From an uncultured Defluviitaleaceae bacterium (lineage in GTDB: Bacteria; Bacillota; Clostridia; Lachnospirales; WRAX01), in the NCBI GenBank assembly GCA_964583165.1, contig CAZOVK010000001.1, forward strand, positions 60,025-124,024: a stretch of DNA of 64,000 bases. The letters run 5' to 3'. This document shows, piece after piece, positions 3,822-64,000 of the stretch. A program made the translations under genes and the position numbers. Under the pieces are notes generated by a model that did not search any database, had not been told where the DNA came from, and saw only the letters and a program-made list of their open reading frames with translations. How positions within the stretch are numbered: position 1 is the first letter of the stretch; each line of letters starts with the position of its first letter.

Positions 3822-4477
3822 AGCATATCGCGCTCATACCCGCGAGGGGCGGGAGTAAAACGATACCGCTTAAAAACATCAGACCGTTTCGCGGCAGACC
3901 GCTGATTTATTGGGTTCTTGACGCGGCTTGCGCCTGTTCGGGTTTAGACGCGGTGTATGTGAGCACGGACAGTGATTTGATAGCGGAAGTCGCGCAGGCA
4001 CATAGCCCACAAGTTCGGATATTCAACCGCGCCGCCGAAACAGCGACGGACACGGCTAGTACTGAAAGTGCCATGCTGGAGTTCGCGAAAGCTTTTGAGT
4101 TCGAGAAAATGGTGTTGATTCAAGCAACCATGCCGTTTTTGAGCGCGACGCATCTGTCACGCGGGCTGGAGCTCATGGAACAAGGTTTTGACTCCGTTTT
4201 AAGCGTTGTTCGCATGAAACGCTTTGTCTGGAACGAAAACGGCGGGGCGGTTGAGCCACTCAATTATGACCCCCAAAACCGCCCGCGCCGTCAAGATTTT
4301 AACGGTGTGTTGATTGAAAACGGTTCTTTTTATATCACTTCGCGGGAAAGATTATTGCAAACGAAATGCCGTTTGAGCGGGCGCGTTGCGGCTGTTGAAA
4401 TGCCCGAATATACATTCACAGAGCTTGACGAGCCGCAAGATTGGGTGACGCTGGAAAATTTGTCTAGTTTTCGTTAA
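3818..4477 (+). CDS. neuA: Acylneuraminate cytidylyltransferase (CMP-sialic-acid-type synthetase)
   Basis: N-terminal IALIPARGGSKTIPLKNI motif of the CMP-NeuAc/KDO cytidylyltransferase fold. Translationally coupled to the upstream synthase. Confidence 0.75.
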   Translation: MKHIALIPARGGSKTIPLKNIRPFRGRPLIYWVLDAACACSGLDAVYVSTDSDLIAEVAQAHSPQVRIFNRAAETATDTASTESAMLEFAKAFEFEKMVLIQATMPFLSATHLSRGLELMEQGFDSVLSVVRMKRFVWNENGGAVEPLNYDPQNRPRRQDFNGVLIENGSFYITSRERLLQTKCRLSGRVAAVEMPEYTFTELDEPQDWVTLENLSSFR

Positions 4478-4889
4478 GACGGCGGCTCTTGTATAACCTA
4501 AACCAATAAAACAGGCTGATTAACACCGAACAGATACACGTGACCCAACCGCGAAATGTGTCGGTGAGCATACCGCCCTCAAACAGCGGTTCACTTATAT
4601 GGCGCAGGTTGAGCACGAACATAACGACCGCGCACGCGCTCATAATGCCAAAGATAATGTTCATGCGAGGGTGCCCGACATACACATCATTTAACGTCAT
4701 TATGGTAAGAACGATAAGAAATGAGATATACAGCCCAATCAACGCGCCGTTAAACGTACTCGCCCAGATGATGCCGAAATCGCGGAGAAACATATCAAAC
4801 AAGATATACACCATCAGAAAGATGTACCCCGCAGTGCAGGCATTGCCGCGCACGAGTTTCTGGCGCTCGTCAAAATCAAAGTTTTTCAT
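4464..4889 (-). CDS. Multi-pass membrane protein of unknown function, co-transcribed with the XRE regulator
   Basis: 141-aa ORF with about 4 hydrophobic segments. Its start overlaps the stop of the upstream HTH gene. Confidence 0.5.
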   Translation of the reverse strand: MKNFDFDERQKLVRGNACTAGYIFLMVYILFDMFLRDFGIIWASTFNGALIGLYISFLIVLTIMTLNDVYVGHPRMNIIFGIMSACAVVMFVLNLRHISEPLFEGGMLTDTFRGWVTCICSVLISLFYWFRLYKSRRLNEN

Positions 4890-5091
4890 TGTTCCCTACC
4901 TCCCAGAATAATTCGTCCAGCGTTCGACCCAGCGCGTGGCAAATTGCGCGGCAAAGCTTGATTGTGGGGTTATATTCACCCAGTTCGATTAGGTTAATCG
5001 TCTGGCGCGAAACACCCACGGCATCGGCTAGTTGCTGTTGTGTCAAATCGAGCGCCGCACGCGCCGACTTCATTTTCAGATTCTTTGGCAT
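4876..5091 (-). CDS. XRE-family helix-turn-helix transcriptional regulator
   Basis: LTQQQLADAVGVSRQTINLIELGEYNPTIKLCRAICHALG is a canonical HTH_3 pattern. GAGGTGG RBS is present. Confidence 0.85.
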   Translation of the reverse strand: MPKNLKMKSARAALDLTQQQLADAVGVSRQTINLIELGEYNPTIKLCRAICHALGRTLDELFWEVGNNEKL

Positions 5092-54255: not shown

Positions 54256-54276
54256 TATAGAATGGTTTAGACAGAT

Positions 54277-54312
54277 AGCGGCGGGTTTTCACCCGCCGCT
54301 ATTTGTGTATTT
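54277..54312 (+). terminator. Intrinsic terminator after hflC; marks the start of falling GC
   Basis: AGCGGCGGG-ttttca-CCCGCCGCT 9-bp stem followed by atttgtgtattt. Confidence 0.8.
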
Positions 54313-54341
54313 GAGTGTCTTTGAGAAACCACTATTATTTA

Positions 54342-55445
54342 TCAAACAACGGCAGGCTTTAATTCAAAACTCAGCGTACCCCGCTCAACGCCATTAACAA
54401 TAAGCGTAATTGAATGAACGCCCGGATAATGCTTTCTTACACTAACGTCAGCAAAAGAATGTTTTCTTGTGTAAAGTTTCTTCTCGTTTTCTTTTAATAC
54501 GACCTCTGATATTTTGAAAATCTTCCTGTTTGATTTTCCGTTTGCCTTGACATAATCAACGCCATATTCGAGCCGCACTTTTGTTTCTGCCTTCGAAGAA
54601 ATCGAAAATGAGAACGTGATTTCTTCCCCGATTGAAATAGATGTCGCCAATAAAGCAAAATCTTCAACATCTATGGGTGTAACGTCAAGGTATCCAAAAA
54701 GAGCAAGCGCATCTCGGTTGCCCTTTTTAAGCAAGGTTCTGCAACCATGCTTCACGACCCAATCGGTATCTTCGTTTTTACCGTACCATTCCCATGCGAG
54801 TTGCAAAACCAAATCGGGGTGTGTTTTAGAAATGTCGTTAAGGTTATTGGCTACACTCTTTCTGACATGTATTGACGGGTCGGCCTTTAACTCCGAAAGT
54901 ATCGGCAGTATAGGGGTAGGGTCTTTCTTAAAGCTATTCAACGCCTGCCCCCACGGAAGGGCAGGGCGACAGCCCTCACAGCTAAGCCTCCGTACATGCT
55001 CGCTTTCATGCTTAGACCAAGCAATCATTTGCGCCACCATGCGCTGCTCATTGTTAATGATAAACGACCTAACGGCAAGCTCCGAAGACGCATATTGAGT
55101 ATATCTCGCCAATGCGCCCATAGATACCTCCCAATCAGCCTCACCTTGCCCATAAATTTCTACAAAAACAGGGAAGAAGGCGACAAAACCGTCCAACCAG
55201 TCACCATAGTTCATAGCCACTTTATCAATAATGCCAATGGCTTCACTATAATCTGAAGGTAAGAATTTGCCTAGGTTCAAACCTATTTGCGCAATCCTAT
55301 CCTTTAGCTCTAAACCGTTCCAATGCTCGTCTAACGTCGATTTCAGAAACTCGTCCACTTGAAACGCGTGATAAACTGCCTGTATATCCACGGCGACTCT
55401 GCGGAGTGATTCATAATTATATCTATTCTTTATCAAATCAGGCAT
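54342..55445 (-). CDS. DNA alkylation repair (AlkD-like HEAT-repeat) family protein
   Basis: HESEHVRRLSCEGCRPALPWG, DPSIHVRKSVANNLNDISK and WVVKHGCRTLLKKG match the 'DNA alkylation repair enzyme' family pattern. ATG 55445 follows AGGAGGG. GC is noticeably lower than the core. Confidence 0.7.
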   Translation of the reverse strand: MPDLIKNRYNYESLRRVAVDIQAVYHAFQVDEFLKSTLDEHWNGLELKDRIAQIGLNLGKFLPSDYSEAIGIIDKVAMNYGDWLDGFVAFFPVFVEIYGQGEADWEVSMGALARYTQYASSELAVRSFIINNEQRMVAQMIAWSKHESEHVRRLSCEGCRPALPWGQALNSFKKDPTPILPILSELKADPSIHVRKSVANNLNDISKTHPDLVLQLAWEWYGKNEDTDWVVKHGCRTLLKKGNRDALALFGYLDVTPIDVEDFALLATSISIGEEITFSFSISSKAETKVRLEYGVDYVKANGKSNRKIFKISEVVLKENEKKLYTRKHSFADVSVRKHYPGVHSITLIVNGVERGTLSFELKPAVV

Positions 55446-55576
55446 ACGGATTGCCCTCCTTCTACATTCGATTCTGATAACCCTAGCGCTAGCCAATACC
55501 TCCAATATCCTTATAAATCCATACTAAAACCTTATCAAAAACTGTGATTATTCGTTAATTCAGTTCAGATAAACTT

Positions 55577-55605
55577 AATGTAGCATGATTGGGGGCACAA
55601 GTCAA
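55577..55605 (-). promoter_or_regulatory. Sigma-A-type promoter reading toward the AlkD-like gene
   Basis: The minus strand reads TTGACT, 17-nt spacer, TACATT. Confidence 0.55.
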
Positions 55606-55640
55606 GTTTTGCTGGCAGACGTGGCGAATCATGTATGTTA

Positions 55641-56144
55641 CTAATGCCAGTATAATGGAAGCCCTGCTCCTGTAAGTATACAAAACATTATTAAGGTCGT
55701 AATAGATATTGTTATGTAATATAATAACCTCCACATTTTAGTAATATAAATCTGAAAAGTTCCTAATGTAAAGACCAAACAAACAGCCAAAACTATAATC
55801 AAATGCCAAGTTGGATGGTAAAAATAATACGAATCTGGCGGGAACCAATTATCAAGTATCTCCCACCCGTTTTCTTTTTTGGGCGTGAGCAAGCTATTGG
55901 TGACAGAAAAAATCACACACCAAGCTACTGTGCTACAAAGACGACACAATACTACTTCTCCGAAAGATTTAAATGAGGTCAGCGAATGATTAATTGCTCT
56001 TTGTTTATTTATACCCAGAATTATTACGATAAGAATACTTTCGACTACAAAATAGAGCAAGAAATAAACGCCGACTTCGAGCATACCACAAAGAAGAAGT
56101 GTAAATAAATACATACAACACCCCATAAAAGAATAATTTCTCAT
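55641..56144 (-). CDS. Orphan multi-pass membrane protein (island cargo)
   Basis: 167-aa AT-rich ORF with 5 hydrophobic segments and a Trp/Tyr-rich loop (NWFPPDSYYFYHPTWH). No family recognised. Confidence 0.45.
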   Translation of the reverse strand: MRNYSFMGCCMYLFTLLLCGMLEVGVYFLLYFVVESILIVIILGINKQRAINHSLTSFKSFGEVVLCRLCSTVAWCVIFSVTNSLLTPKKENGWEILDNWFPPDSYYFYHPTWHLIIVLAVCLVFTLGTFQIYITKMWRLLYYITISITTLIMFCILTGAGLPLYWH

Positions 56145-56515
56145 ATACTTCGAAAGCTGCCAAGTTCAGCCCGACAGCTTTCGATAAAATGAATAGTACC
56201 CATTGTATTGGTTAGCGTCCGAAATCTATACAGGGATTTGAACCCTCATGCTTACCAAGATGCAATGAATCAAAGCAGTTTCTTACTCACAGTATATCAT
56301 CCGAATGAAACTCCGTCAAATCCATTTAGTCGCCAAACCAATATCAGTACCTCTGGTGAATATCCGTGCCTCACGTCGCCCGCCAGACTTATGAGCGAGA
56401 AAGTTCAATAACTTTTCAGCAAACTTATCGATAATTATGGCATACATTGCGATATTCCCGGTGCTTAGGGGTGTGAGCTTATGAAGAAAGAAAAACGGGC
56501 TTTTATGCCACATGA

Positions 56516-56728
56516 GAAATTGCATATAATGATGATATAATCGACTGTTTTGTGAATTCAGTTTATTTGTTTGATGACAAGCTTATTATTACCTATAATT
56601 TGACAAATGAAAAATCCGAACTCGAGGGCTCGGATTTAACGTTCTTGTACGCGTTGAATACGGGCGAGTGTTCGCCTATGACACACTCAAATGGAGATGA
56701 GGGGCGACTGTCTGTACTCTTGACTTAA
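56516..56728 (+). pseudogene. C-terminal remnant of a large serine recombinase gene
   Basis: An open frame without a start reads ..IIDCFVNSVYLFDDKLIITYNLTNEKSELEGSD.. This matches the conserved C-terminal tail (I..FV..IYLYDDK..ITFN) of phage/ICE serine recombinases as I recall it. Possible further fragments lie in other frames at 56412-56515. No catalytic domain is present. Confidence 0.5.
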
Positions 56729-56970
56729 TGCTTGATTGTGGTTACTGTTTATAGCTATTAAAGTCAAGGGACATTGTCAGTACTTACAAAGCTGTAATTT
56801 TCTTAAAATGTCTTATTTTTTTGCAACTGCAAACAAAGTAAAAGCAACGTCAATTTTTCCGACGTACTACGTGTCTTGTGTTCGCATTGTCTCCATAATT
56901 AGTAAAACACTACTGCCGAGTATAGCCTACAATCAAACGGTTTGCACAAACAGCAAACTTATCTAGTTGG

Positions 56971-57570
56971 TTAGGTTTTGCGAACTATATTTAACAAAAA
57001 GATAAAATCCTCTTTTCCGCTCCCTGTATATAATTCATCCGTGGTAATCTGGATTCTTTTATTTACAATAATTATTGAATGTATCGTTTCATTCGTGCTG
57101 ACTGAACGCACTATCCCTTCATATACTTTGTATCCGAAAAACTGTAGCATCGGATTCATGTAAGTCATATGGTTAGATATATAAATGTATCCTACAAGGA
57201 TCATTAAAAATAACAATACAAAGACATCTACAATATTATTTAGAGTTAATCCCAGACATGACAAGAGATAAATAGATATGTAATTAAAGTAAACACTTCC
57301 TGTCTGGTCTTCTACACTAACGATTTCATAGTAATGTGTACCACCATCTTTTTTAATGATAACTTTCAAATATAGACATGACACCACGCACAACAGTATC
57401 AGAATAATAATCGCATAATCATTTACTTCATCAAAGTATTTTGCTGTTATCAATTTCGACAACGAAAACACAAAACGCCCGCCATCTGTACAGCGCTCCA
57501 GTACATTCTTAATCACTAATAATATATATAACGGAACATAAGAAGAAATAAATAACAATATTCTTCTCAA
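56971..57570 (-). CDS. Four-TM membrane protein with a ~65-aa C-terminal soluble tail; putative membrane partner of the KwaB-like gene (KwaA-like role)
   Basis: TTG start at 57570 follows AAAGGGGGGAATAA. TM segments lie at about residues 4-24, 52-72, 93-110 and 113-131, then NHMTYMNPMLQFFGYKVYEGIVRSV... Co-directional with and immediately downstream of 57671-58537. Confidence 0.6.
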   Translation of the reverse strand: MRRILLFISSYVPLYILLVIKNVLERCTDGGRFVFSLSKLITAKYFDEVNDYAIIILILLCVVSCLYLKVIIKKDGGTHYYEIVSVEDQTGSVYFNYISIYLLSCLGLTLNNIVDVFVLLFLMILVGYIYISNHMTYMNPMLQFFGYKVYEGIVRSVSTNETIHSIIIVNKRIQITTDELYTGSGKEDFIFLLNIVRKT

Positions 57571-57670
57571 TTATTCCCCCCCTTTATACCTGCTTGGTAT
57601 TCCTGAATTGCAGATGCAATCATTTTGTTGCTTGTCAACGCATCTATAACATAGTGCCTTAAAAGCAAGT

Positions 57671-58537
57671 TTAAAATTTCTGGTATATCTTTTTTACACG
57701 ATAAATTATAACGCCTTCCGTAGATGTTATGAGAGTTAAACCAAATTCATTAATTATATTCGGTACTTCTGCTGTTTTTTTGGCAACTTCATCGAATCCT
57801 TTTGCCAGAATCACTTTTGTCAATCGTTTCAAATATCTGCCGTCAGATTCACAATCATCTACAAACTGAGCTGGATCTGCTAGTAATCCACTATCGCAGA
57901 TCATCTGAGAATTAGCATGTAATATCTTTATGAATACATCACTATATGCAAATATTGAGTTAAATATATTCCGATTGAAAACATAATAAGTGTCTCCAAG
58001 CAAAAACGCATCAACAGATGAATTTATCGTAATGATTTCATCCCTAAAGGGCTTTAACAATCCACCTGATAACACATATTTTTGGCTTGTCCTATATGCG
58101 GTTGATTGATGGGTGTACTTTTTGAATATATACAAAGACTTACCTTGAACATCGACCTGAATAACCATGAAATCAATTTTAGACAAATCCGTGTTTTTTG
58201 ATACTACGTTATCATCAGTGTATTTTATTGTTATTTGGCTTAGGACTTCATCACTGTGAATAACATCACTCTTGTCTACCATTTGTGTAGAATCGTCGAC
58301 AGATATATCCAAGTCGTAAGCATCTAAAGTCCTTTTTTCGATTTCGTTAATTATAAGGGTAAGAGAATCAATAATAACAGATTTGGCATCTTCAATTTCT
58401 GTTTTTAACATCTTCCCTCTGTATCGCTGTTTGCGATTATTATTTTGATCTACCAACATAATGTTTATTTCTGCCGTATTATCTTCTACGGCTTGGTTAA
58501 TAACACTTAGCTCTATTTTTAGTTCATCTTTCTCCAT
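57671..58537 (-). CDS. KwaB-like (DUF4868-like) soluble protein, zero-frame product; a -1 frame extension reaches 57567
   Basis: ATG 58537 follows TGGGGG. The segment DFMVIQVDVQGKSLYIFKKYT..LLKPFRDEIITINSSVDAFLLGDTYYVFNRNIFNSIFAY resembles the DUF4868 core as I remember it. The zero frame stops at 57671, 100 nt before the next gene. Confidence 0.6.
   Translation of the reverse strand: MEKDELKIELSVINQAVEDNTAEINIMLVDQNNNRKQRYRGKMLKTEIEDAKSVIIDSLTLIINEIEKRTLDAYDLDISVDDSTQMVDKSDVIHSDEVLSQITIKYTDDNVVSKNTDLSKIDFMVIQVDVQGKSLYIFKKYTHQSTAYRTSQKYVLSGGLLKPFRDEIITINSSVDAFLLGDTYYVFNRNIFNSIFAYSDVFIKILHANSQMICDSGLLADPAQFVDDCESDGRYLKRLTKVILAKGFDEVAKKTAEVPNIINEFGLTLITSTEGVIIYRVKKIYQKF
57689..57695 (-). other. 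A_AAA_AAG heptamer in the zero frame (candidate -1 frameshift site or homopolymer indel)
   Basis: The minus strand reads cgt gtA AAA AAG ata. The -1 frame continues KKDIPEILNLLLRHYVIDALTSNKMIASAIQEYQAGIKGGNN and stops at TGA 57569-57567, overlapping TTG 57570-57568. Confidence 0.5.
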
Positions 58538-58679
58538 TCGGATGCCCCCATTCATCTTCTAAAGTAGCACTTGTCGTTAATCTTAGTGAAATGACAACTT
58601 CTCTATATTGCCGTCATCACCTAGAAGCCAAGTTCTCTGTATCTTTCAAAACTCACAGCAACAGGAATATTTCAGCAAT

Positions 58680-58708
58680 ATTGTACACTAAGAATCTAAA
58701 AATGTCAA
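58680..58708 (-). promoter_or_regulatory. Near-consensus sigma-A promoter of the KwaB-like/membrane operon
   Basis: The minus strand reads TTGACA (58708-58703), 17-nt spacer, TACAAT (58685-58680), about 140 nt upstream of ATG 58537. Confidence 0.7.
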
Positions 58709-58901
58709 ATGTTTTGCTAGACGTCACTTTTCTATAATATTGTGTGTATTCGTAATCATAATAATTAACGCTCTCTTGTATTCAGGAAGTATTGTCTGTA
58801 TTTCGTAGGCATTCGTTTTTGTTCTATATTATTAACACAATGACAGTCACAAAGCTACACTTTGTTTTAACCACACTTACGAGCATATATTATTACCCAG
58901 A

Positions 58902-58931
58902 AGCCCCAGAGAATAAAATTTCTCTCGGGCT
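58902..58931. other. 12-bp imperfect hairpin in the divergent intergenic region
   Basis: AGCCCCAGAGAA-taaaat-TTCTCTCGGGCT (11 of 12 paired). There is no clear T tail on either strand. It lies directly 3' of a 32-codon minus-strand ORF (MDCRKKKFTDEAEMLENQRVVLVQLLSVSLMS). Confidence 0.4.
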
Positions 58932-59095
58932 TTCATGACATTAAACTCACTGAAAGGAGTTGAACCAACACAACCCGCTGATTTTCAAGCATTTCTGCCT
59001 CGTCAGTGAATTTTTTCTTGCGACAATCCATTGTATTATCGAAATGCTTATCTACTCGAGTTGGGATATGATTTATTTATCCTTAACTATAAGAG

Positions 59096-59368
59096 GTGAA
59101 TGCCATTGATGTAAGCGAACTAGATGTGTCATGTTTTAATGGCTGTTACAGAGATTTGGTTGAACTGATTGGGCATGACAATACGCTGATTCTTTACAGA
59201 GCTTATGCGGGTCAGTATGTTTCGTTTCCGAAGAAACTACTGGCAGACAGCTTTGTACATGAGCAGATTATCAAGGAATACAACAGCGTGAATGCCAAAG
59301 AACTAGCCAGAAAGTACGGTTATACATACAGCTGGATTATGAAGCTGATTAAAAAACTAAAAGACTGA
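59096..59368 (+). CDS. Mor-family transcription activator-like protein
   Basis: DLVELIGHDNTLILYRAYAGQYVSFPKK plus the C-terminal HTH-like NAKELARKYGYTYSWIMKLIKK resemble Mu Mor-family proteins. The GTG start has a poor RBS, so the exact start is uncertain. Confidence 0.55.
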   Translation: MNAIDVSELDVSCFNGCYRDLVELIGHDNTLILYRAYAGQYVSFPKKLLADSFVHEQIIKEYNSVNAKELARKYGYTYSWIMKLIKKLKD

Positions 59369-59380
59369 GGAGAGATTGTT

Positions 59381-59734
59381 ATGGCTAACAAGAGCTTTAT
59401 GTTGGCAAAACCCCTTGAAGCCGAAGAAGCCTTTGAGTATTTGAGAGCTAACCTGCGCTCCACAAAGGTTACATCCATTACCTATGACCCCAACATGAAA
59501 CGTGTTGACATAGGTGGGCGTTACCACAACTATCAATTGAGTTTTTATGGCAATCAAGTGACAGTTGCAACAAAGATTGTTCAGAAATGGTCTTACATAA
59601 TCATTGCATGTGCCGTTACTGGGCTGTTCCTCTTTATACCATTCATTATTGCTATAGTGATAGCCTTTATCGCAAACTCCGAGATTTCGGAACTAACTAC
59701 CCTTTTCCAGCAAACCCTCAATATGAAGCAATAG
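59381..59734 (+). CDS. Hypothetical C-terminally membrane-anchored protein
   Basis: Strong RBS GAGGAGAG. A 70-aa polar N-domain precedes a long hydrophobic segment (WSYIIIACAVTGLFLFIPFIIAIVIAFIA). Confidence 0.5.
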   Translation: MANKSFMLAKPLEAEEAFEYLRANLRSTKVTSITYDPNMKRVDIGGRYHNYQLSFYGNQVTVATKIVQKWSYIIIACAVTGLFLFIPFIIAIVIAFIANSEISELTTLFQQTLNMKQ

Positions 59735-59744
59735 GGCGATACAG

Positions 59745-59778
59745 TCTCAACCTCATTGGCGGGGTTGGGACTTTTTTT
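59745..59778 (+). terminator. Intrinsic terminator of the Mor-like operon
   Basis: TCTCAACC / GGTTGGGA 8-bp stem (one G-U pair) with a 10-nt loop, followed by cTTTTTTT. Confidence 0.7.
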
Positions 59779-59968
59779 GAGAAGAATCTAGGTATTCATT
59801 CGCCACTACAAAATCTTGGATATTCAACGGAAATTACAGGTAGTGACGAAGTAACGGGCATTTTTAAACTTTCCCCATTCACATACGCCACCACTCTATT
59901 TTTTATTTTTTTCGTTACTTCAGTACTACTTCACTATTGTACTTTTAGTTACATTCAATATTTGCTTC

Positions 59969-60005
59969 AAAAAAAGATAATGACAGTGGTTAACCTATCA
60001 TTATC
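59969..60005 (-). terminator. Probable terminator of the minus-strand DpnD-DUF1643 operon
   Basis: GATAATGA / TCATTATC 8-bp arms around a 14-nt loop containing GGTTAACC, followed on the minus strand by T7. It begins 16 nt after the last stop codon. Confidence 0.5.
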
Positions 60006-60021
60006 CCTTTTGCAACTTCAA

Positions 60022-60159
60022 TTACTTACGACGAACAGTTTTGCTAGTCTTTGTGGCTGTATAGAGCGTAACCCCTAACAAAGCTCCCTTTGTGAACATC
60101 TCCACAAAACCAACTGTTGCACTAGCTGTTGCCAATGACGCTATCCATACACTTAACAT
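60022..60159 (-). CDS. 45-aa hydrophobic peptide with a basic tail
   Basis: MLSVWIASLATASATVGFVEMFTKGALLGVTLYTATKTSKTVRRK. Its ATG overlaps the stop region of the preceding 30-codon ORF (ATGTTAA). Confidence 0.4.
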   Translation of the reverse strand: MLSVWIASLATASATVGFVEMFTKGALLGVTLYTATKTSKTVRRK

Positions 60160-60245
60160 GAAGCAACAACCCTTGAAGTAAATAGCATATCCATCCCATA
60201 CAATGCCACTAGAGCAAACGCAATACCACACAGAAAATAGACCAT
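60153..60245 (-). CDS. 30-aa hydrophobic peptide
   Basis: MVYFLCGIAFALVALYGMDMLFTSRVVASC. ATG 60245 lies 6 nt after GGGAG. Below the 60-aa cutoff of the ORF track. Confidence 0.4.
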   Translation of the reverse strand: MVYFLCGIAFALVALYGMDMLFTSRVVASC

Positions 60246-60275
60246 TATATCTCCCTCTGGAATGTTAATCACTTT

Positions 60276-60641
60276 CTAATCCCTCAAATCATCTAGCCAA
60301 TGCATAGGGGTTATTGCCATTGGAATGAATACATTTATACCAAACTCGTTGTTTCTTAGAAGTAGTGCGTTTACATATGCCATCTGCTCGCACTCTACAA
60401 TGCTTACATATTCGGGCAAGGCTACATCCAAGCAGACATTCAAAGCAATAGCGTCATCTATATCCCGAACATTTTGTAACACCAATACAAAGCCACCATC
60501 AGCCCTGTCTACATCACGAGTTGAGCCGTAGTTGTCGTCTAGTGCAATTACAATATTCAGAATGACTTGAAAGACTTCATTGGGAATATAGTCCTTGATT
60601 TCTTCAAGTTCAGCAACAGTTCCTACCTTATATATAGCACA
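60276..60641 (-). CDS. Hypothetical ~120-aa protein lacking a canonical start at its 5' end
   Basis: The frame is open from 60641 (..IYKVGTVAELEEIKDYIPNEVFQVILNIVIALDDNYGSTRDVD..), but the first ATG/GTG/TTG is TTG 60485. An RBS-preceded ATG at 60642 is out of frame, just before a (TA)4 tract. Confidence 0.4.
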   Translation of the reverse strand, partial: CAIYKVGTVAELEEIKDYIPNEVFQVILNIVIALDDNYGSTRDVDRADGGFVLVLQNVRDIDDAIALNVCLDVALPEYVSIVECEQMAYVNALLLRNNEFGINVFIPMAITPMHWLDDLRD

Positions 60642-60710
60642 TCACCCAACCTCTCATTGGAAAAGAAGTCCACATCATATTCCTATTACCTTAGAACGAG
60701 GCTATTATTT

Positions 60711-61253
60711 CTAGTTGCCGTTACCTTCGGGAGCTTCTGATTTCTTGTCAAATAGGTATTCTGGCAATACAAACTTTTCTAGCAACCAATGTTCCCGAAT
60801 CTGAGGAGCAAGTGGATGAAAGCCATATTCACCGTTTACGCTCTGAATGTGATACAGCTTGTCGGCAAATGGTTTGAGCTTCTCAATCAAGCTTAGTTGC
60901 ACAAGCCTGACTTTCTTGTTATTCTCGCCGATTTTACCCCATGAGATGATTACCTTTTGGGAGCGTTCGGCTGATTTAAGGATTTGCTCAAGATTGGCGG
61001 AATCTAGTGCAATATCTCCTTTGGTGTCTAGCTTTGCAGAAATCTGGCTTGTCATATTGAGTATATCAACACCGCCTAGCCCTAACTTGGACAAATGATT
61101 GATTATGTACATTGTTGTGTAATCAAGCGCAACTGTATCAGCCATGCTGGGGTTTGTCATAATTATGTTTGCGATGGGCTTCTTATCATCCCACACCTTT
61201 CTGAGCAGATATCTATGTGTTCTGTCGTTACTGAAGATAGCTTCGGTTTTCAA
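60711..61253 (-). CDS. DUF1643-family protein
   Basis: FSNDRTHRYLLRKVW..IIMTNPSMAD..YGFHPL matches the DUF1643 signature (YRY.L.R.W, NPS.AD, HPL) as I recall it. TTG start without a clear RBS, so the start is uncertain. Confidence 0.7.
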   Translation of the reverse strand: MKTEAIFSNDRTHRYLLRKVWDDKKPIANIIMTNPSMADTVALDYTTMYIINHLSKLGLGGVDILNMTSQISAKLDTKGDIALDSANLEQILKSAERSQKVIISWGKIGENNKKVRLVQLSLIEKLKPFADKLYHIQSVNGEYGFHPLAPQIREHWLLEKFVLPEYLFDKKSEAPEGNGN

Positions 61254-61342
61254 AACATTTTTGTCGGTTACTATAGTTCATTCCCCCACTCATTTTGATT
61301 ATTCTTTAGCAAATCCAATTAGCAGATTTGCAAATACATGAA

Positions 61343-61519
61343 TCAGACATCGGCTACTTTTCTTGCATTGAATGTTACGCCTTGAAAGTCGCCACTGTCC
61401 AAAATTACATGCTCATCATGATACTGTTGTTCGGCTATGCGGAGTGCTTCTTCTGTTGATTCAGCTTCAATAACGAGCATTCCGGCAAGTGTTTCTTTAA
61501 TCTCAACCGTAAACTTCAT
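61343..61519 (-). CDS. DpnD/PcfM-like small protein
   Basis: The 58-aa ORF is below the track cutoff: MKFTVEIKETLAGMLVIEAESTEEALRIAEQQYHDEHVILDSGDFQGVTFNARKVADV. AGGAG RBS is present. The pattern (MKF.VEI.E.L...V.VEA...EEA......Y....I.LD..DF) fits DpnD/PcfM. Confidence 0.6.
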   Translation of the reverse strand: MKFTVEIKETLAGMLVIEAESTEEALRIAEQQYHDEHVILDSGDFQGVTFNARKVADV

Positions 61520-61735
61520 TTGAACCTTCTCCTTTCTTGTATGGTTTGGAATCGAAACTTAAAAAAGCTTGACTATCATGCGATTGATTCAAGTAAATAA
61601 TATATTCTTGTGATGTTGTTAGGTACTATTTATATGAACTAATGTGTATATTTGAATGCTATTCCTCAACTATTGATTGTTATTGCAAAACGCATGACTG
61701 GACAGGAATAGGGCGTTATGCGCAATATAATTGCA

Positions 61736-61760
61736 ATATTGACAAAAATATTGTCATTAT
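61736..61760. promoter_or_regulatory. Operator-like inverted repeat in the divergent control region
   Basis: ATATTGACAA-aaata-TTGTCATTAT (9 of 10 symmetric), containing a TTGACA hexamer. An adjacent palindrome GCAAT-ATA-ATTGC (61722-61734) contains TATAAT. Confidence 0.4.
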
Positions 61761-61962
61761 TTCCGATCTACTGTTTATCCTTGTCGCATATAATAGTTAA
61801 GAGATGATTTCGATCCTTGCTAATATCCCGATTTTTCGGTCAGTGCTTTGACAAGAGAATACATCATCAGTGGTTAATATCGCTTTTATATCTAGCACTG
61901 GATTAAGCAGTCAACTTTTATACTATATATAAAACCATATAACAAGAATAGGGGAAAAAATT

Positions 61963-63756
61963 ATGCGTCTAATAATCAACAAGAGCAAACATGTATCGAC
62001 ACAATCTTCTACCACAACAACCGCTTCGACAGCTGGATCTAATGCGATGACTCAGGTTAAGCCCAAGCCATCAACTGGTTTATCGAGAACTTGCTCCAAA
62101 TGTCCAAAGCTCAAGCAGATGCTGGGATTGCAACTGAACAATCAACTTACAAGGCATGATTGGGAATTGGCTGTACGTTTACTTGTTGACAACGGATACA
62201 TTGCTCTTGCACGAGAGTTTTCACGCTTGTCATCAAAACATGACTTTAACAGCGAGAACTGGATTGACAGTTTGTTATCAAGAGATTATATTTACCCAGT
62301 GACTTGTGTTTCTCTAGGTTGTACAAAATTCAATGTGGGGAAATGCTGCGAACAGATTAAGTATAACGAGAGTAAAGCAATTATAAATTCACCAAATGAG
62401 CACATTAGGAGCAAAAGAGACTTTAACAAGACGTAGGCTTTTCATACAATGACAATGGGGTACTGAAGGGTTTGAATGCCAATCAGTTTATACCTCACAT
62501 CTTGGCAAACTTCGATAGTGCAATTAATAACAACAGTGTGTATTATATATATCTGAACGATTGTTGGAGAAGTGAAGAATTAAGCTTTATTCGTAGAATT
62601 CTAATGCGGTTTTTCGATTCGTTTGAGCGTGACCAATGGAACGAGCAGTATGAACGCAAGTACTTGCACCAGTTACCGCTTTGCGCCCCCAAGACAGAGA
62701 ACCTAAGTGACGGCACCAAATATCTTAATCTAACCAATGGACTGTATGATCTTGATAAAATGGCTTTGGTTAAGCATGACAAGGGAATCTTCTCAACCGT
62801 TCACATCCCCATCGCTTACAACAGGAACGCAGAATGTCCTATATTCATGCATTTCTTGGATGATATATTTGAAGGTGATAAGGAACTTATCAAGCTCGTT
62901 CAAGAAATCATGGGGTATTGCTTGTGCCAATCATCACAAGCCCAGAAGTTCTTTATCTTTCTAGGCGGAGGAGCTAACGGCAAGTCGCTATTGTGCAATG
63001 TGATTGCGTCTATGGTCGGTAAAGATAATGTTAGTAGTGTATCTTTGAGACAGCTTAGCGGACAGTTTGACACGTCTGATATGGTGGGGAAACTGGTTAA
63101 CATTTCCACAGAAAACGAGATGAACGGGATGAAAGTCGACACCGAAATTCTCAAAGCTATATCTGCGGGTGACAAAATCAATGTTCAGCGAAAATACAAA
63201 GACGCTTTTACGACTACAATTACCGCTAAACTTATCTTTGCCGTTAACCAGCTCCCAAACTCCCAAGACACCACAGAAGCTTTTTTCCGCAGACTGATTA
63301 TTGTCCCCTTCAACAGAACCTATGTTGAAGAACACGCCAATGAATATCTGGGAAAAATTGACACAACACTAGAACCAAGGATTCTCAAAGAGCGTGAAGG
63401 CATTCTCAATTTCGCGCTTCAAGGTTATGAGAGGTTAAAAGCAAGCGGTTTCTATTTTACTAAAGCTAGCAAGTCACTCGATATTTTAGATGAATACCAA
63501 CAAGCACTGAATCCAATTCAAATGTTTGTTGACGAATGTATAGAGGAGTTCTCAAGACCCCTCGAAAAAAACAGCAATAGGATTGCGTTAGACGAGCTGT
63601 ATGAGTGTTATGGTTGTACCACAGTTCAATTATGAATACAAGCTCTTTGACTCTATTATGTACTTTTCTTTACAAATTAGTTCAAAAACTGGAGATATAT
63701 TGTTATTGTATAATGGAATTGCTATATTATCATGTTACCATTTTACACCTCTTTGA
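61963..63756 (+). pseudogene. Phage/plasmid primase, P4 family (D5-type NTPase), split across three reading frames
   Basis: ORF 62472-63635 has the P4-family C-terminal helicase-primase pattern (Walker A GGGANGKS, VNISTE, FRRLIIVPF). Its frame is open back to 62427 and overlaps ORF 61963-62436 by 10 nt in the -1 frame. A third frame (63592-63756) continues past the 63635 stop. Confidence 0.65.
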
Positions 63757-63849
63757 TCTTACTTCAAGGAAAATCCCTATATATATTAGCAAATTTTATT
63801 TCAACTGTAATGCGTCAAGTGTATTAAGTTTTGACTATATGTTAAAACA

Positions 63850-63875
63850 AGGCAGCCAAAGCCGCCTAGATTTTG
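63850..63875. terminator. Possible bidirectional terminator hairpin
   Basis: AGGCAGC-caaa-GCCGCCT (one mismatch), followed by agaTTTT on the plus strand and TTGTTTT on the minus strand. Confidence 0.45.
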
Positions 63876-64000
63876 GGTATATCATAGAGTATGGCAATCT
63901 GGCTATGCAATCGATGCATGCTAGATTATGTATCGCAGGTAATTACGTTTTGAATTGTCCGATAATATGCGCGTCAACTCTATAGTATCTGTCAAAAATA

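What the first reader, a model, noticed from the sequence alone, without database searches (positions are those of the whole stretch)
54301..64000. Low-GC accessory island: a decayed integrative element whose right end lies beyond the window
Spot counts of single 60-nt lines give about 60% GC at 53.1 kb and about 37% at 57.0 kb. The drop begins after the hflC terminator and is sharp after 55.5 kb. Content switches from housekeeping genes to a serine-recombinase tail fragment, a P4-type primase, a Mor-like activator, DpnD/PcfM-like and DUF1643-like genes, orphan membrane proteins and small peptides. This set resembles phage-satellite or ICE-type modules that carry defence cargo. No intact integrase, tRNA target or flanking direct repeat is visible inside the window.
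Basis: partly seen in the sequence, partly recalled or inferred. Interest (0 to 1): 0.55.

Follow-up and report, generated by a model that had tools for sequence, protein, structure and literature searches.

The report
Decayed genomic island carrying Kiwa defence
The last 9.7 kb of the window is foreign, low-GC DNA: the broken remains of a cassette-type mobile element (related to the staphylococcal SCC elements) that brought in a Kiwa anti-phage system, now itself damaged. This is real and tidy, but an ordinary kind of genomic island.

Summary
GC falls from 0.50 (1-54,300) to 0.43 (54,301-55,500) and 0.37 (55,501-64,000). Tetranucleotide similarity to the bulk drops from 0.76-0.93 to 0.24-0.45, and coding density from 93% to about 60%.

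The gene calls also hold: a serine-recombinase tail, a P4-type primase_Cterm helicase, Mor, DpnD/PcfM and DUF1643. Together they form a Kiwa anti-phage cassette in kwaB-kwaA order, 71% nt identical to cassettes on other Clostridia mobile elements.

Relatives of the helicase lie directly upstream of a large serine recombinase in all three informative contexts. One of those elements abuts rlmH and carries a Ccr-like recombinase and DUF960. The closest known kind is therefore an SCC-like cassette (Ccr recombinase, Cch2 helicase, DUF1643), not a prophage, PICI or ICE.

The copy is decayed:
- The helicase is frameshifted and lacks its C-terminal domain.
- kwaB has a 1-nt deletion.
- A conserved backbone gene lacks a start codon.
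- Only a 26-aa recombinase remnant is left.

I could not reach the right end or an empty site. Verdict: a new member of a known kind, of modest interest.

The parts
54268..54309 (+). hflC terminator hairpin; left compositional edge of the island
   Evidence: Inverted repeat I5 with 19-nt arms, 89% complementary. GC3 falls from 0.60 (hflC) to 0.36 in the next gene.
54342..55445 (-). alkC-like DNA alkylation-repair glycosylase (HEAT repeats), intact; atypical composition; probably separately acquired
   Evidence: Pfam DNA_alkylation 9.3e-6 and HEAT. Thousands of homologues of 364 aa at 70-78% identity, named AlkC or 'DNA alkylation repair protein' in Bacteroidales, Treponema, Peptococcaceae and Eubacteriales. 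GC 0.434, GC3 0.359. Absent downstream of hflC in all fetched relatives.
55641..56144 (-). 167-aa membrane protein with 4 hydrophobic segments; no family match
   Evidence: No hit in Pfam, PADLOC or PHROGs. Hydropathy scan. GC 0.34.
56522..56728 (+). Remnant of the extreme C-terminus of a large serine recombinase gene; the rest of the gene is missing
   Evidence: AYNDDIIDCFVNSVYLFDDKLIITYN matches AYQRNIIDCFVNSVYIFDDRFVVNFN, the end of a zinc-ribbon/coiled-coil serine recombinase on Subdoligranulum plasmids, at 61.5% over 26 aa (E = 2e-5). No upstream recombinase sequence was detectable.
56971..57570 (-). kwaA, the Kiwa membrane sensor subunit; 199 aa, apparently intact
   Evidence: PADLOC KwaA 1.8e-26 across 13 KwaA models. 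NCBIfam KwaA 7e-19, below the equivalog cut-off. 72% aa identity over the full length to the KwaA (PF28043) of L010-L013.
57567..58537 (-). kwaB, the Kiwa DNA-binding effector (DUF4868), disrupted by a 1-nt deletion at 57,689-57,695. The zero frame stops at 57,671; the conserved last 40 aa are encoded in the -1 frame (57,689-57,567), ending in a TGA that overlaps the kwaA start
   Evidence: Pfam KwaB 3.5e-18 and PADLOC KwaB 2.8e-18. Over 90 homologues are 322-325 aa against 288 here. Protein and DNA alignments show AAA-GAG-GAT in relatives and AAA-AA-GAT here. The restored product would be 323 aa.
58680..58708 (-). Promoter-like site upstream of kwaB (TTGACA-17-TACAAT)
   Evidence: 11 of 12 consensus matches. 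This is a pattern match only.
59096..59368 (+). Mor-family transcription activator
   Evidence: Pfam Mor 1.2e-9. PHROGs late transcriptional activator. 36% identical to the Mor of the L007 element.
59381..59772 (+). 117-aa membrane-anchored ORF co-directional with mor, followed by a strong terminator hairpin (59,743-59,772)
   Evidence: ORF, hydropathy and terminator with 12 pairs plus a T-run. No family match.
60273..60587 (-). Conserved acidic ~105-aa backbone protein of unknown function. It lacks a start codon at the expected position; the first ATG/GTG/TTG is at 60,485
   Evidence: Homologous to the 120-aa and 121-aa genes of the L005 and L007 elements (tblastx; translations; alignment A3). 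No Pfam or PDB match.
60711..61253 (-). DUF1643 protein, one of the three small conserved ORFs of SCC elements
   Evidence: Pfam DUF1643 1.1e-23 over the full profile. phrog_3230. 38% identical to the DUF1643 of L007. Its SCC association is stated in PMC7581432.
61343..61519 (-). DpnD/PcfM-like small protein
   Evidence: Pfam PF14207 1.4e-12.
62092..63635 (+). Cch2/PriRep5-type self-loading SF3 helicase ('P4-family primase C-terminal' type); a pseudogene. The N-terminal ~115 aa are in frame 1 (62,092-62,433), the rest in frame 3 (62,427-63,635), and the last ~76 aa (the C-terminal domain) are missing
   Evidence: TIGR01613 primase_Cterm 4.9e-62. D5_N plus DUF5906. PDB 7OLA (SaPI5 PriRep5) 1.9e-36. 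tblastn with 109 homologues shows the frame split and the missing tail. The homologues are 460-640 aa.
63636..64000 (.). AT-rich (GC 0.30-0.33) non-coding stretch, then the last 18 codons of a convergent minus-strand gene (stop at 63,943-63,945) with a terminator-like hairpin at 63,850-63,867. No recombinase follows the helicase here
   Evidence: Translations, terminator scan, and no homology to helicase tails or recombinases.

Best explanation
**What it is.** The segment from about 54.3 kb to beyond 64.0 kb is horizontally acquired DNA. It lies downstream of the hflKC operon in a Clostridia chromosome whose nearest available relatives are Defluviitaleaceae or Clostridiales MAGs.

**Core of the island.** The stretch from about 56.9 kb to at least 63.6 kb is the disabled remnant of a cassette-type integrative element. 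This family is built like staphylococcal SCC pattern-2 elements. A large serine recombinase integrates and excises the element, and a Cch2/PriRep5-type self-loading SF3 helicase would replicate the excised circle. Small conserved genes (DUF1643, Mor, a ~105-120-aa acidic protein) accompany them, and a variable arm holds cargo.

**Cargo.** Here the cargo is a two-gene Kiwa anti-phage system in kwaB-kwaA order. In working Kiwa systems, KwaA tetramers in the membrane sense phage attachment or DNA entry. KwaB then binds the incoming DNA through DUF4868 and blocks replication and late transcription.

**State of this copy.**
- The helicase gene is frameshifted and has lost its origin-binding C-terminal domain.
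- No recombinase gene follows it.
- A 26-aa recombinase tail survives 6 kb to the left. It may mark a second, older cassette layer that also holds alkC and a membrane protein.
- A backbone gene has lost its start codon.
- kwaB carries a 1-nt deletion that removes its conserved last 40 residues.

**Shown versus inferred.** Shown: the composition break, the homologies, the gene disruptions, and the architecture of relatives. Inferred: that this copy once integrated by a serine recombinase, that it cannot now move by itself, and that Kiwa is inactive.
For: - **Foreign origin.** Composition and k-mer break. Coding density falls from 93% to 59-64%.
- **Kiwa.** Pfam KwaB 3.5e-18 and PADLOC KwaA 1.8e-26. 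The cassette alone, without flanks, is 71% nt identical to kwaB-kwaA cassettes on integrase/relaxase elements L010-L013.
- **Backbone.** The helicase is TIGR01613 primase_Cterm and matches SaPI5 PriRep5 (7OLA) at 1.9e-36. PMC7581432 states that SCC pattern 2 comprises Cch2 (Primase_Cterm/D5_N), CcrC, and DUF950, DUF960 and DUF1643.
- **Relatives.** Helicase homologues P0024, P0018 and P0030 each lie 0.2-2.5 kb upstream of a 522-658-aa serine recombinase at the element/host junction.
  - L007 also has DUF1643, Mor and the 121-aa gene.
  - L005 has DUF960, abuts rlmH, and its recombinase scores 381 bits against CcrB and 377 bits against CcrC.
- **Decay.** Helicase frame split and missing tail. 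kwaB deletion. Missing start codon. Recombinase remnant. The 54 kb of core DNA shows no comparable fragmentation.
- **Function of the lost parts.** The PriRep5 C-terminal domain is needed for origin binding, ATPase and helicase activity (PMC9371898). The C-terminal region of KwaB is DUF4868, which carries the DNA contacts and dimer-dimer contacts (PMC11785009).
Against: - No recombinase is present in the window, so the link to serine-recombinase elements rests on relatives whose helicases are only 38-44% identical.
- Gene order differs from those relatives: mor is inverted, and DpnD is present instead of RadC.
- DUF950 and DUF960 are absent, and the site is not rlmH.
- The right boundary and the sequence beyond 64,000 are unknown. 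An intact recombinase could lie further right.
- No close relative was available to show an empty site.
- The single-base frameshifts could be assembly errors, although the 3' truncation of the helicase cannot be.
- No attachment sites were identified.
Confidence: 0.62

Rival explanations
1. This is an intact, still mobile element. Its recombinase and remaining modules lie beyond the window, and the frameshifts in kwaB and the helicase are sequencing or assembly errors.
For: - Low GC continues to the last base.
- Both frameshifts are single-base events in A-rich contexts.
- The source is a draft contig of 176 kb.
Against: - The helicase lacks about 76 C-terminal residues, and no homologous sequence exists in any frame downstream. 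This is a deletion, not a base-calling error.
- A convergent gene and terminator follow it, where relatives have the recombinase.
- The backbone gene has no start codon.
- The 54 kb of core DNA is 93% covered by long ORFs with no sign of frequent indel errors.
Confidence: 0.12
2. This is a recombinase-less SCC-like cassette or composite island. It cannot move alone but is still excised and mobilised in trans by a serine recombinase encoded elsewhere in the genome, as shown for tandem SCC-like defence cassettes in staphylococci.
For: - PMC11470126 reports that Ccr recombinases mobilise tandem SCC-like cassettes that lack their own recombinases and are enriched in defence genes.
- The SCC-like backbone is present here.
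- The recombinase tail remnant suggests more than one cassette layer.
Against: - No attachment-site repeats were found.
- No recombinase gene exists anywhere in the 64-kb window.
- The replication helicase is broken.
- Nothing here tests excision.
Confidence: 0.15
3. This is a phage satellite (PICI/SaPI-like), prophage or ICE remnant.
For: - The helicase's best structural relative is the SaPI5 PriRep5 replication initiator.
- Mor is a phage late activator family.
- DpnD/PcfM occurs on conjugative elements.
- Distant helicase relatives (up to 37% identity) are common in viral contigs.
Against: - The island ORFs scanned gave no PHROGs or Pfam hit to capsid, terminase, small terminase, tyrosine integrase, repressor pair, relaxase or type IV secretion genes.
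- There is no DNA match in 50,697 phage or 72,556 plasmid records.
- The closest helicase relatives (38-48% identity) are in chromosomal serine-recombinase cassettes, not in viral contigs.
Confidence: 0.08
4. This is not a mobile element at all. It is an ancestral low-GC, poorly expressed region of this lineage.
For: No empty-site comparison was possible, and no attachment sites were found.
Against: - A GC difference of 13 points and a collapse in tetranucleotide similarity.
- Genes with their closest relatives on mobile elements of other taxa.
- Synteny with relatives ends at hflC.
Confidence: 0.03

Closest known systems
Staphylococcal cassette chromosome (SCC/SCCmec), pattern 2 (CCPol-MP-Cch2, CcrC, DUF950/DUF960/DUF1643), and SCC-like or enterococcal cassette chromosomes
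   Same: - A Cch2-type helicase with the Primase_Cterm/D5_N domain, and a DUF1643 gene.
- In relatives of the helicase, a large serine recombinase sits directly downstream of the helicase at the host junction.
- One relative (L005) abuts rlmH, has DUF960, and has a recombinase scoring 377-381 bits against the CcrB and CcrC models.
- Variable cargo that includes defence genes, and possible tandem or composite layering.
   Different: - No recombinase in the window, only a 26-aa tail.
- The site is downstream of hflC/alkC, not rlmH.
- No CCPol, MP, DUF950 or DUF960.
- Mor and DpnD/PcfM are present.
- The host is a Clostridia lineage, not Staphylococcus.
- Helicase identity to any retrieved relative is at most 48%.
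- The copy is degraded.
Kiwa anti-phage system (KwaA/KwaB; Doron et al. 2018; mechanism in PMC11785009)
   Same: - A two-gene cassette: a multi-pass membrane KwaA of about 200 aa and a DUF4868 KwaB of about 320 aa.
- It is carried on a genomic island, as are over 50% of Kiwa loci.
   Different: - The gene order is kwaB then kwaA, shared with its clade (L010-L013). From my own knowledge, the E. coli O55:H7 system is kwaA-kwaB.
- Both proteins score below NCBIfam's E. coli-centred equivalog cut-offs.
- kwaB here has a 1-nt deletion that truncates the last 40 residues.
SaPI/PICI phage satellites (PriRep5-type replication initiator)
   Same: The helicase shares the NTD plus SF3 ATPase architecture of PriRep5 (7OLA, E = 1.9e-36). 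The logic of a small island that replicates after excision is also shared.
   Different: There is no tyrosine integrase, Stl-type repressor, packaging or capsid-remodelling genes. The relatives use serine recombinases.

Membership tests
Kiwa defence system | KwaB with a DUF4868 (PF16162) domain | tested here: met
   Pfam 66.7 bits against a cut-off of 26.3. PADLOC KwaB 2.8e-18. 65-68% identity to over 90 KwaB proteins.
Kiwa defence system | Adjacent KwaA integral membrane protein (4 TM helices plus a C-terminal barrel) | tested here: met
   13 PADLOC KwaA models, best 1.8e-26, aligned over residues 3-177 of 199. 72% identity to the PF28043 KwaA of L010-L013. A crude hydropathy scan resolves 3 peaks, with the last one probably a merged pair.
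Kiwa defence system | Both genes intact; each is essential for defence (PMC11785009) | tested here: not met
   kwaB has a 1-nt deletion. The zero-frame product is 288 aa and lacks the conserved last 40 aa. It would count as met only if this is a sequencing error or is rescued by -1 slippage.
Kiwa defence system | Protects against phage or conjugation | not testable with these tools
   This needs plaque or conjugation assays.
SCC-type cassette chromosome element | Ccr-type large serine recombinase gene(s) | tested here: not met
   Only a 26-aa C-terminal remnant at 56,522-56,599. There is no recombinase elsewhere in the 64 kb. It is present in the relatives L005, L007 and L101/L102.
SCC-type cassette chromosome element | Cch or Cch2 self-loading helicase | tested here: met
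   TIGR01613 primase_Cterm 209 bits against a cut-off of 108.7. D5_N plus DUF5906. 7OLA 1.9e-36. The gene is a pseudogene. Direct comparison with a staphylococcal Cch2 sequence was not possible.
SCC-type cassette chromosome element | Small conserved ORFs DUF950 (SaUGI), DUF960 and DUF1643 | tested here: inconclusive
   DUF1643 is present. DUF950 and DUF960 are not detected in the window. DUF960 is present in the relative L005.
SCC-type cassette chromosome element | Integration at the 3' end of rlmH (orfX), with flanking att repeats | tested here: not met
   The left neighbours are hflC and alkC. No rlmH homologue exists in the window and no att-like repeats were found. The relative L005 does abut rlmH.
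PICI/SaPI phage satellite | Tyrosine integrase, repressor module and phage-packaging or interference genes | tested here: not met
   The island ORFs scanned gave no such Pfam or PHROGs hit.
ICE/IME | Relaxase with or without a type IV secretion system | tested here: not met
   No such hit among the island ORFs scanned. Only DpnD/PcfM is present. The part beyond 64,000 is unseen.

The most novel reading that the evidence does not exclude
Clostridia harbour a previously undescribed family of SCC-related cassettes: a Ccr-like serine recombinase, a Cch2-like helicase, DUF1643/DUF960, Mor and an unannotated acidic ~120-aa protein. Some sit at rlmH, others at other sites, and they shuttle defence systems such as Kiwa. 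The window copy is a recombinase-less member that is still mobilised in trans. As a further twist, the kwaB deletion created an in-phase A_AAA_AAG heptamer, so that a fraction of ribosomes could restore full-length KwaB by -1 slippage.
Probability: 0.15. Interest if true: 0.5.

Novelty: new member of a known kind. Interest (0 to 1): 0.3.

Why it matters
- It is a clean, worked example of defence cargo (Kiwa) riding on cassette-type serine-recombinase elements outside the staphylococci. In the open-access literature I searched, the DUF1643/DUF960 with serine-recombinase backbone is discussed only for Staphylococcus.
- It shows how such islands erode once fixed: the replication, recombination and defence genes are all hit.
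- For annotation, it turns an 'orphan membrane protein' and a 'hypothetical' into a named defence system, and it flags three pseudogenes.
- It does not open a new biological question by itself.

Tried and rejected
**Extending the contig to the right**
- Exact-protein look-ups of five window proteins and of the 100%-identical database entries P0001 and P0110 all returned 'not on record'.
- The cluster look-up gave only a contig length of 176,036 bp and no accession.

**Empty-site comparison**
- The GTDB scan with the helicase found nothing.
- HflC scans of GTDB genomes and JGI metagenomes gave relatives only 49-80% identical, with no conserved synteny downstream of hflC.

**Other searches that led nowhere**
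- megablast of the island against phage and plasmid records: no match.
- Long direct or inverted repeats, att sites, and iterons near the helicase: only chance-level matches.
- Rfam on the island: nothing.
- Recombinases of relatives against the window by tblastn: no hit. The tail was confirmed only through a Subdoligranulum plasmid recombinase.
- The ~105-120-aa backbone protein against PDB (including any SaUGI entries) and Pfam: no match.
- The viral-contig scan with a helicase profile: only distant relatives, up to 37% identity.

**Readings considered and rejected**
- That the kwaB-kwaA order is unique to this locus. It is shared by the whole clade.
- Prophage, PICI and ICE readings, for lack of any hallmark gene.

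Full report
**1. The observation**

The window averages 0.50 GC up to the hflC terminator (1-kb windows: mean 0.500, sd 0.022, min 0.430). It falls to 0.43 over 54,301-55,500 and to 0.37 over 55,501-64,000, where the 1-kb maximum is 0.419.

The first is a local high rather than the background.

Tetranucleotide correlation with the bulk is 0.76-0.93 for each 2-kb block of the first 54 kb and 0.24-0.45 for the last five blocks. The best single change point is near 55,150 (t = 17.8). GC3 already drops from 0.60 (hflC) to 0.36 in the first gene after the terminator.

ORFs of at least 100 aa cover 93% of the core (median 302 aa) but only 59-64% of the island (median 180 aa). There is no tRNA anywhere in the window.

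**2. What is encoded**

From left to right:

| Coordinates | Strand | Feature |
|---|---|---|
| 54,342-55,445 | - | Intact alkC-like HEAT-repeat alkylation-repair glycosylase |
| 55,641-56,144 | - | 167-aa membrane protein with no family |
| 56,522-56,728 | + | Short recombinase remnant |
| 56,971-57,570 | - | kwaA |
| 57,567-58,537 | - | kwaB |
| 59,096-59,368 | + | mor |
| 59,381-59,734 | + | 117-aa membrane-anchored ORF, followed by a terminator |
| 60,022-60,231 | - | 69-aa hydrophobic ORF |
| 60,273-60,587 | - | Conserved ~105-aa acidic protein |
| 60,711-61,253 | - | DUF1643 |
| 61,343-61,519 | - | DpnD/PcfM |
| 62,092-63,635 | + | Split helicase gene |
| 63,636-64,000 |. | 365 nt of AT-rich DNA; its last 58 nt are the end of a convergent minus-strand gene with its own terminator-like hairpin |

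The recombinase tail is only 26 significant residues, AYNDDIIDCFVNSVYLFDDKLIITYN. These match the extreme C-terminus of a zinc-ribbon/coiled-coil large serine recombinase on two Subdoligranulum plasmids (E = 2e-5 against 7.3 Gb). Nothing upstream of it resembles a recombinase.

**3.

The 199-aa 'orphan membrane protein' matches 13 PADLOC KwaA models (best 1.8e-26). Its upstream neighbour matches Pfam KwaB/DUF4868 at 66.7 bits against a cut-off of 26.3.

More than 90 database proteins are 52-68% identical to KwaB. In the contexts I fetched (Proteiniclasticum sp. QWL-01 and three metagenome contigs), the same kwaB-then-kwaA order is found. There the cassette sits on tyrosine-integrase/relaxase elements beside Macro-domain and BREX genes. 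Only the two-gene cassette is shared with the window (71% nt identity over 57,063-58,492), not its flanks. Kiwa is therefore a discrete cargo module.

Kiwa and the 167-aa membrane gene are also the lowest-GC genes of the island (0.31-0.34), against 0.40-0.42 for the backbone genes. This marks the island as a mosaic.

The published mechanism (PMC11785009) is as follows:
- KwaA tetramers and KwaB dimers form a membrane supercomplex.
- KwaA senses membrane perturbation at phage attachment or conjugation.
- KwaB binds the entering DNA through DUF4868 and blocks replication and late transcription.
- Both genes are essential.
- Over half of Kiwa loci are on mobile elements.

**4. What kind of element it is**

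The helicase is of the 'P4-family primase C-terminal' type:
- TIGR01613 at 209 bits against a cut-off of 108.7.
- D5_N plus DUF5906, with a GxGxNGKS Walker A motif.
- Its best solved relative is the SaPI5 replication initiator PriRep5 (7OLA, 1.9e-36).

Its closest database relatives are only 38-48% identical. In every context long enough to judge, the helicase gene lies just upstream of a 522-658-aa large serine recombinase that abuts host genes:
- **L005/L006:** helicase, two small ORFs, recombinase.
- **L007/L008:** helicase, recombinase.
- **L101/L102:** helicase, 80-aa ORF, recombinase, then radC-mreBCD. L101 also has an IS110 insertion between helicase and recombinase.

A fourth contig ends too early to judge.

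L007 also carries DUF1643, Mor and a 121-aa gene, all homologous to window genes. L005 carries the 120-aa gene and DUF960, begins directly after rlmH, and has a recombinase that aligns end to end with the CcrB and CcrC models (381 and 377 bits).

According to PMC7581432, the conserved backbone of SCC elements is:
- the Ccr serine recombinase(s);
- a Cch or Cch2 helicase, where Cch2 has the Primase_Cterm/D5_N domain and is related to SaPI5 Rep;
- three small ORFs with DUF950, DUF960 and DUF1643.

The window element therefore works like, and is probably derived from, an SCC-like cassette. It is not a prophage, satellite or ICE. The island ORFs scanned gave no capsid, terminase, tyrosine integrase, relaxase or secretion hit, and there is no DNA match in the phage or plasmid collections.

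It fails formal SCC membership on three tested features: no recombinase, not at rlmH, and no DUF950 or DUF960. I file it as SCC-like, not as an SCC.

**5. Evidence of decay**

(a) *Helicase.* tblastn with 109 homologues puts their residues 1-120 on frame 1 (62,092-62,445) and residues from about 107 onward on frame 3 (62,427-63,548). The gene is therefore split by one frameshift near 62,427-62,436. A median of 76 C-terminal residues have no counterpart in any frame. In PriRep5 this C-terminal domain recognises the origin and is required for ATPase and helicase activity (PMC9371898).

(b) *kwaB.* The gene stops at 288 aa, where homologues have 322-325. Protein and DNA alignments show that one base has been lost: relatives read AAA GAG GAT and the window reads AAA AA GAT. 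The conserved last 40 residues (DIPEILNLLLRHYVIDALTSNKMIASAIQEYQAGIKGGNN, 90% identical to relatives) follow in the -1 frame, down to a TGA that overlaps the kwaA TTG start.

(c) *Backbone gene.* The conserved ~105-aa gene is open but has no ATG, GTG or TTG where its homologues start.

(d) *Recombinase.* Only a recombinase tail remains. Where relatives have the recombinase, the window has AT-rich non-coding DNA and a convergent gene.

The core 54 kb shows long uninterrupted ORFs of up to 909 aa. A generally error-prone assembly is therefore unlikely, and the 3' truncation cannot be a base-calling error. The two single-base frameshifts remain unverified at read level.

**6. Layers and boundaries**

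The recombinase remnant reads rightward and ends 240 nt before kwaA. In the relatives, the recombinase is the last gene before the junction. This is consistent with two layers:
- an older remnant at about 54.3-56.8 kb (alkC, the membrane protein and the recombinase tail);
- a second cassette from about 56.9 kb, with Kiwa as its cargo arm.

Tandem or composite SCC-like cassettes rich in defence genes are documented in staphylococci (PMC11470126). This layering is inference only. No att-like repeats were found, and serine recombinases leave only a 2-bp crossover (established knowledge), so their absence is uninformative.

alkC is 70-78% identical to proteins annotated in Bacteroidales, Treponema and Peptococcaceae. 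HflC finds nothing closer than 66% over more than 190 aligned residues (80% on one 124-residue fragment). So alkC is itself likely a transferred gene.

The p222-hflK-hflC synteny is kept in the nearest relatives and ends at hflC. This agrees with a left edge at the hflC terminator, but those relatives are distant.

**7. What could not be done**

The source contig (176,036 bp, NCBI) could not be retrieved. The right end is therefore unknown, as is the presence of a recombinase further right. No close relative was available for an empty-site test.

**8. Verdict**

In more precise terms, it is a decayed SCC-like serine-recombinase cassette (or a composite of two) that delivered a kwaB-kwaA Kiwa defence system, now probably inactivated, next to hflKC in a Clostridia chromosome.

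It is a new member of known kinds (a Kiwa system, and an SCC-like cassette or defence island). It is useful for annotation and a small pointer to SCC-related cassettes in Clostridia, but not surprising to a specialist. Interest is 0.3.

Noticed in passing
window 57,689-57,695 (minus strand): The 1-nt deletion in kwaB leaves the sequence gtA AAA AAG ata, the classical -1 slippery heptamer A_AAA_AAG in the correct phase. A -1 slip there would read V-K-K-D-I-P-E and yield a full-length 323-aa KwaB. I saw no obvious downstream stimulatory hairpin by eye. This is most likely a coincidence of a plain inactivating deletion.
   Followed up: partly
L005 2,269-13,711 (ENA ERZ724031 NODE_104; also L006): This is an element of about 11-13 kb that starts directly after rlmH (PF02590). 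It carries an N6/N4 methyltransferase, RadC, DUF960, a Cch2-like helicase and a recombinase scoring 381 bits (CcrB) and 377 bits (CcrC). It is an SCC-like cassette at the canonical SCC site in a metagenome-derived genome whose host organism I did not identify.
   Followed up: partly
L010-L013 8,001-9,577 (for example Proteiniclasticum sp. QWL-01, CP120965.1): The Kiwa clade related to the window has the gene order kwaB-kwaA, with a 3-nt gap between the genes. It rides on tyrosine-integrase plus relaxase mobilisable elements, next to a Macro-domain gene, a Y-family polymerase gene and BREX (brxA/B/C). The identical KwaB is listed in 92 index blocks of the collection.
   Followed up: partly
window 54,342-55,445: The alkC-like glycosylase is 70-78% identical to proteins annotated in several phyla (Bacteroidales, Treponema, Peptococcaceae, Eubacteriales). 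This is far more conserved than the flanking housekeeping HflC is to its nearest relatives, and its GC3 is 0.36 against 0.60 for the core. This suggests recent horizontal spread of the repair gene.
   Followed up: partly
window 60,273-60,587; L005 5,980-6,342; L007 7,766-8,131: A conserved, strongly acidic protein of about 105-121 aa is shared by the window element and two recombinase cassettes. It has no Pfam or PDB match. Its position among small SCC-type ORFs and its acidity make a DNA-mimic or anti-defence role conceivable, but nothing tests this.
   Followed up: partly
window 63,943-64,000 (minus strand), terminator-like hairpin at 63,850-63,867: The last 18 codons (…IFDRYYRVDAHIIGQFKT*) of a gene enter from beyond the right edge, convergent with the truncated helicase. 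The gene is unidentified.
   Followed up: no
L009 (Subdoligranulum variabile plasmid OY725836.1, about 3,900-4,950 in the record): The serine recombinase used to identify the window's tail fragment is itself split across two reading frames in an unannotated plasmid record.
   Followed up: no
L101 10,664-11,908: An IS110-family transposase is inserted between the helicase and the serine recombinase in one copy of a related cassette. It is absent in the otherwise collinear L102. Both cassettes end next to radC-mreBCD-minC.
   Followed up: no
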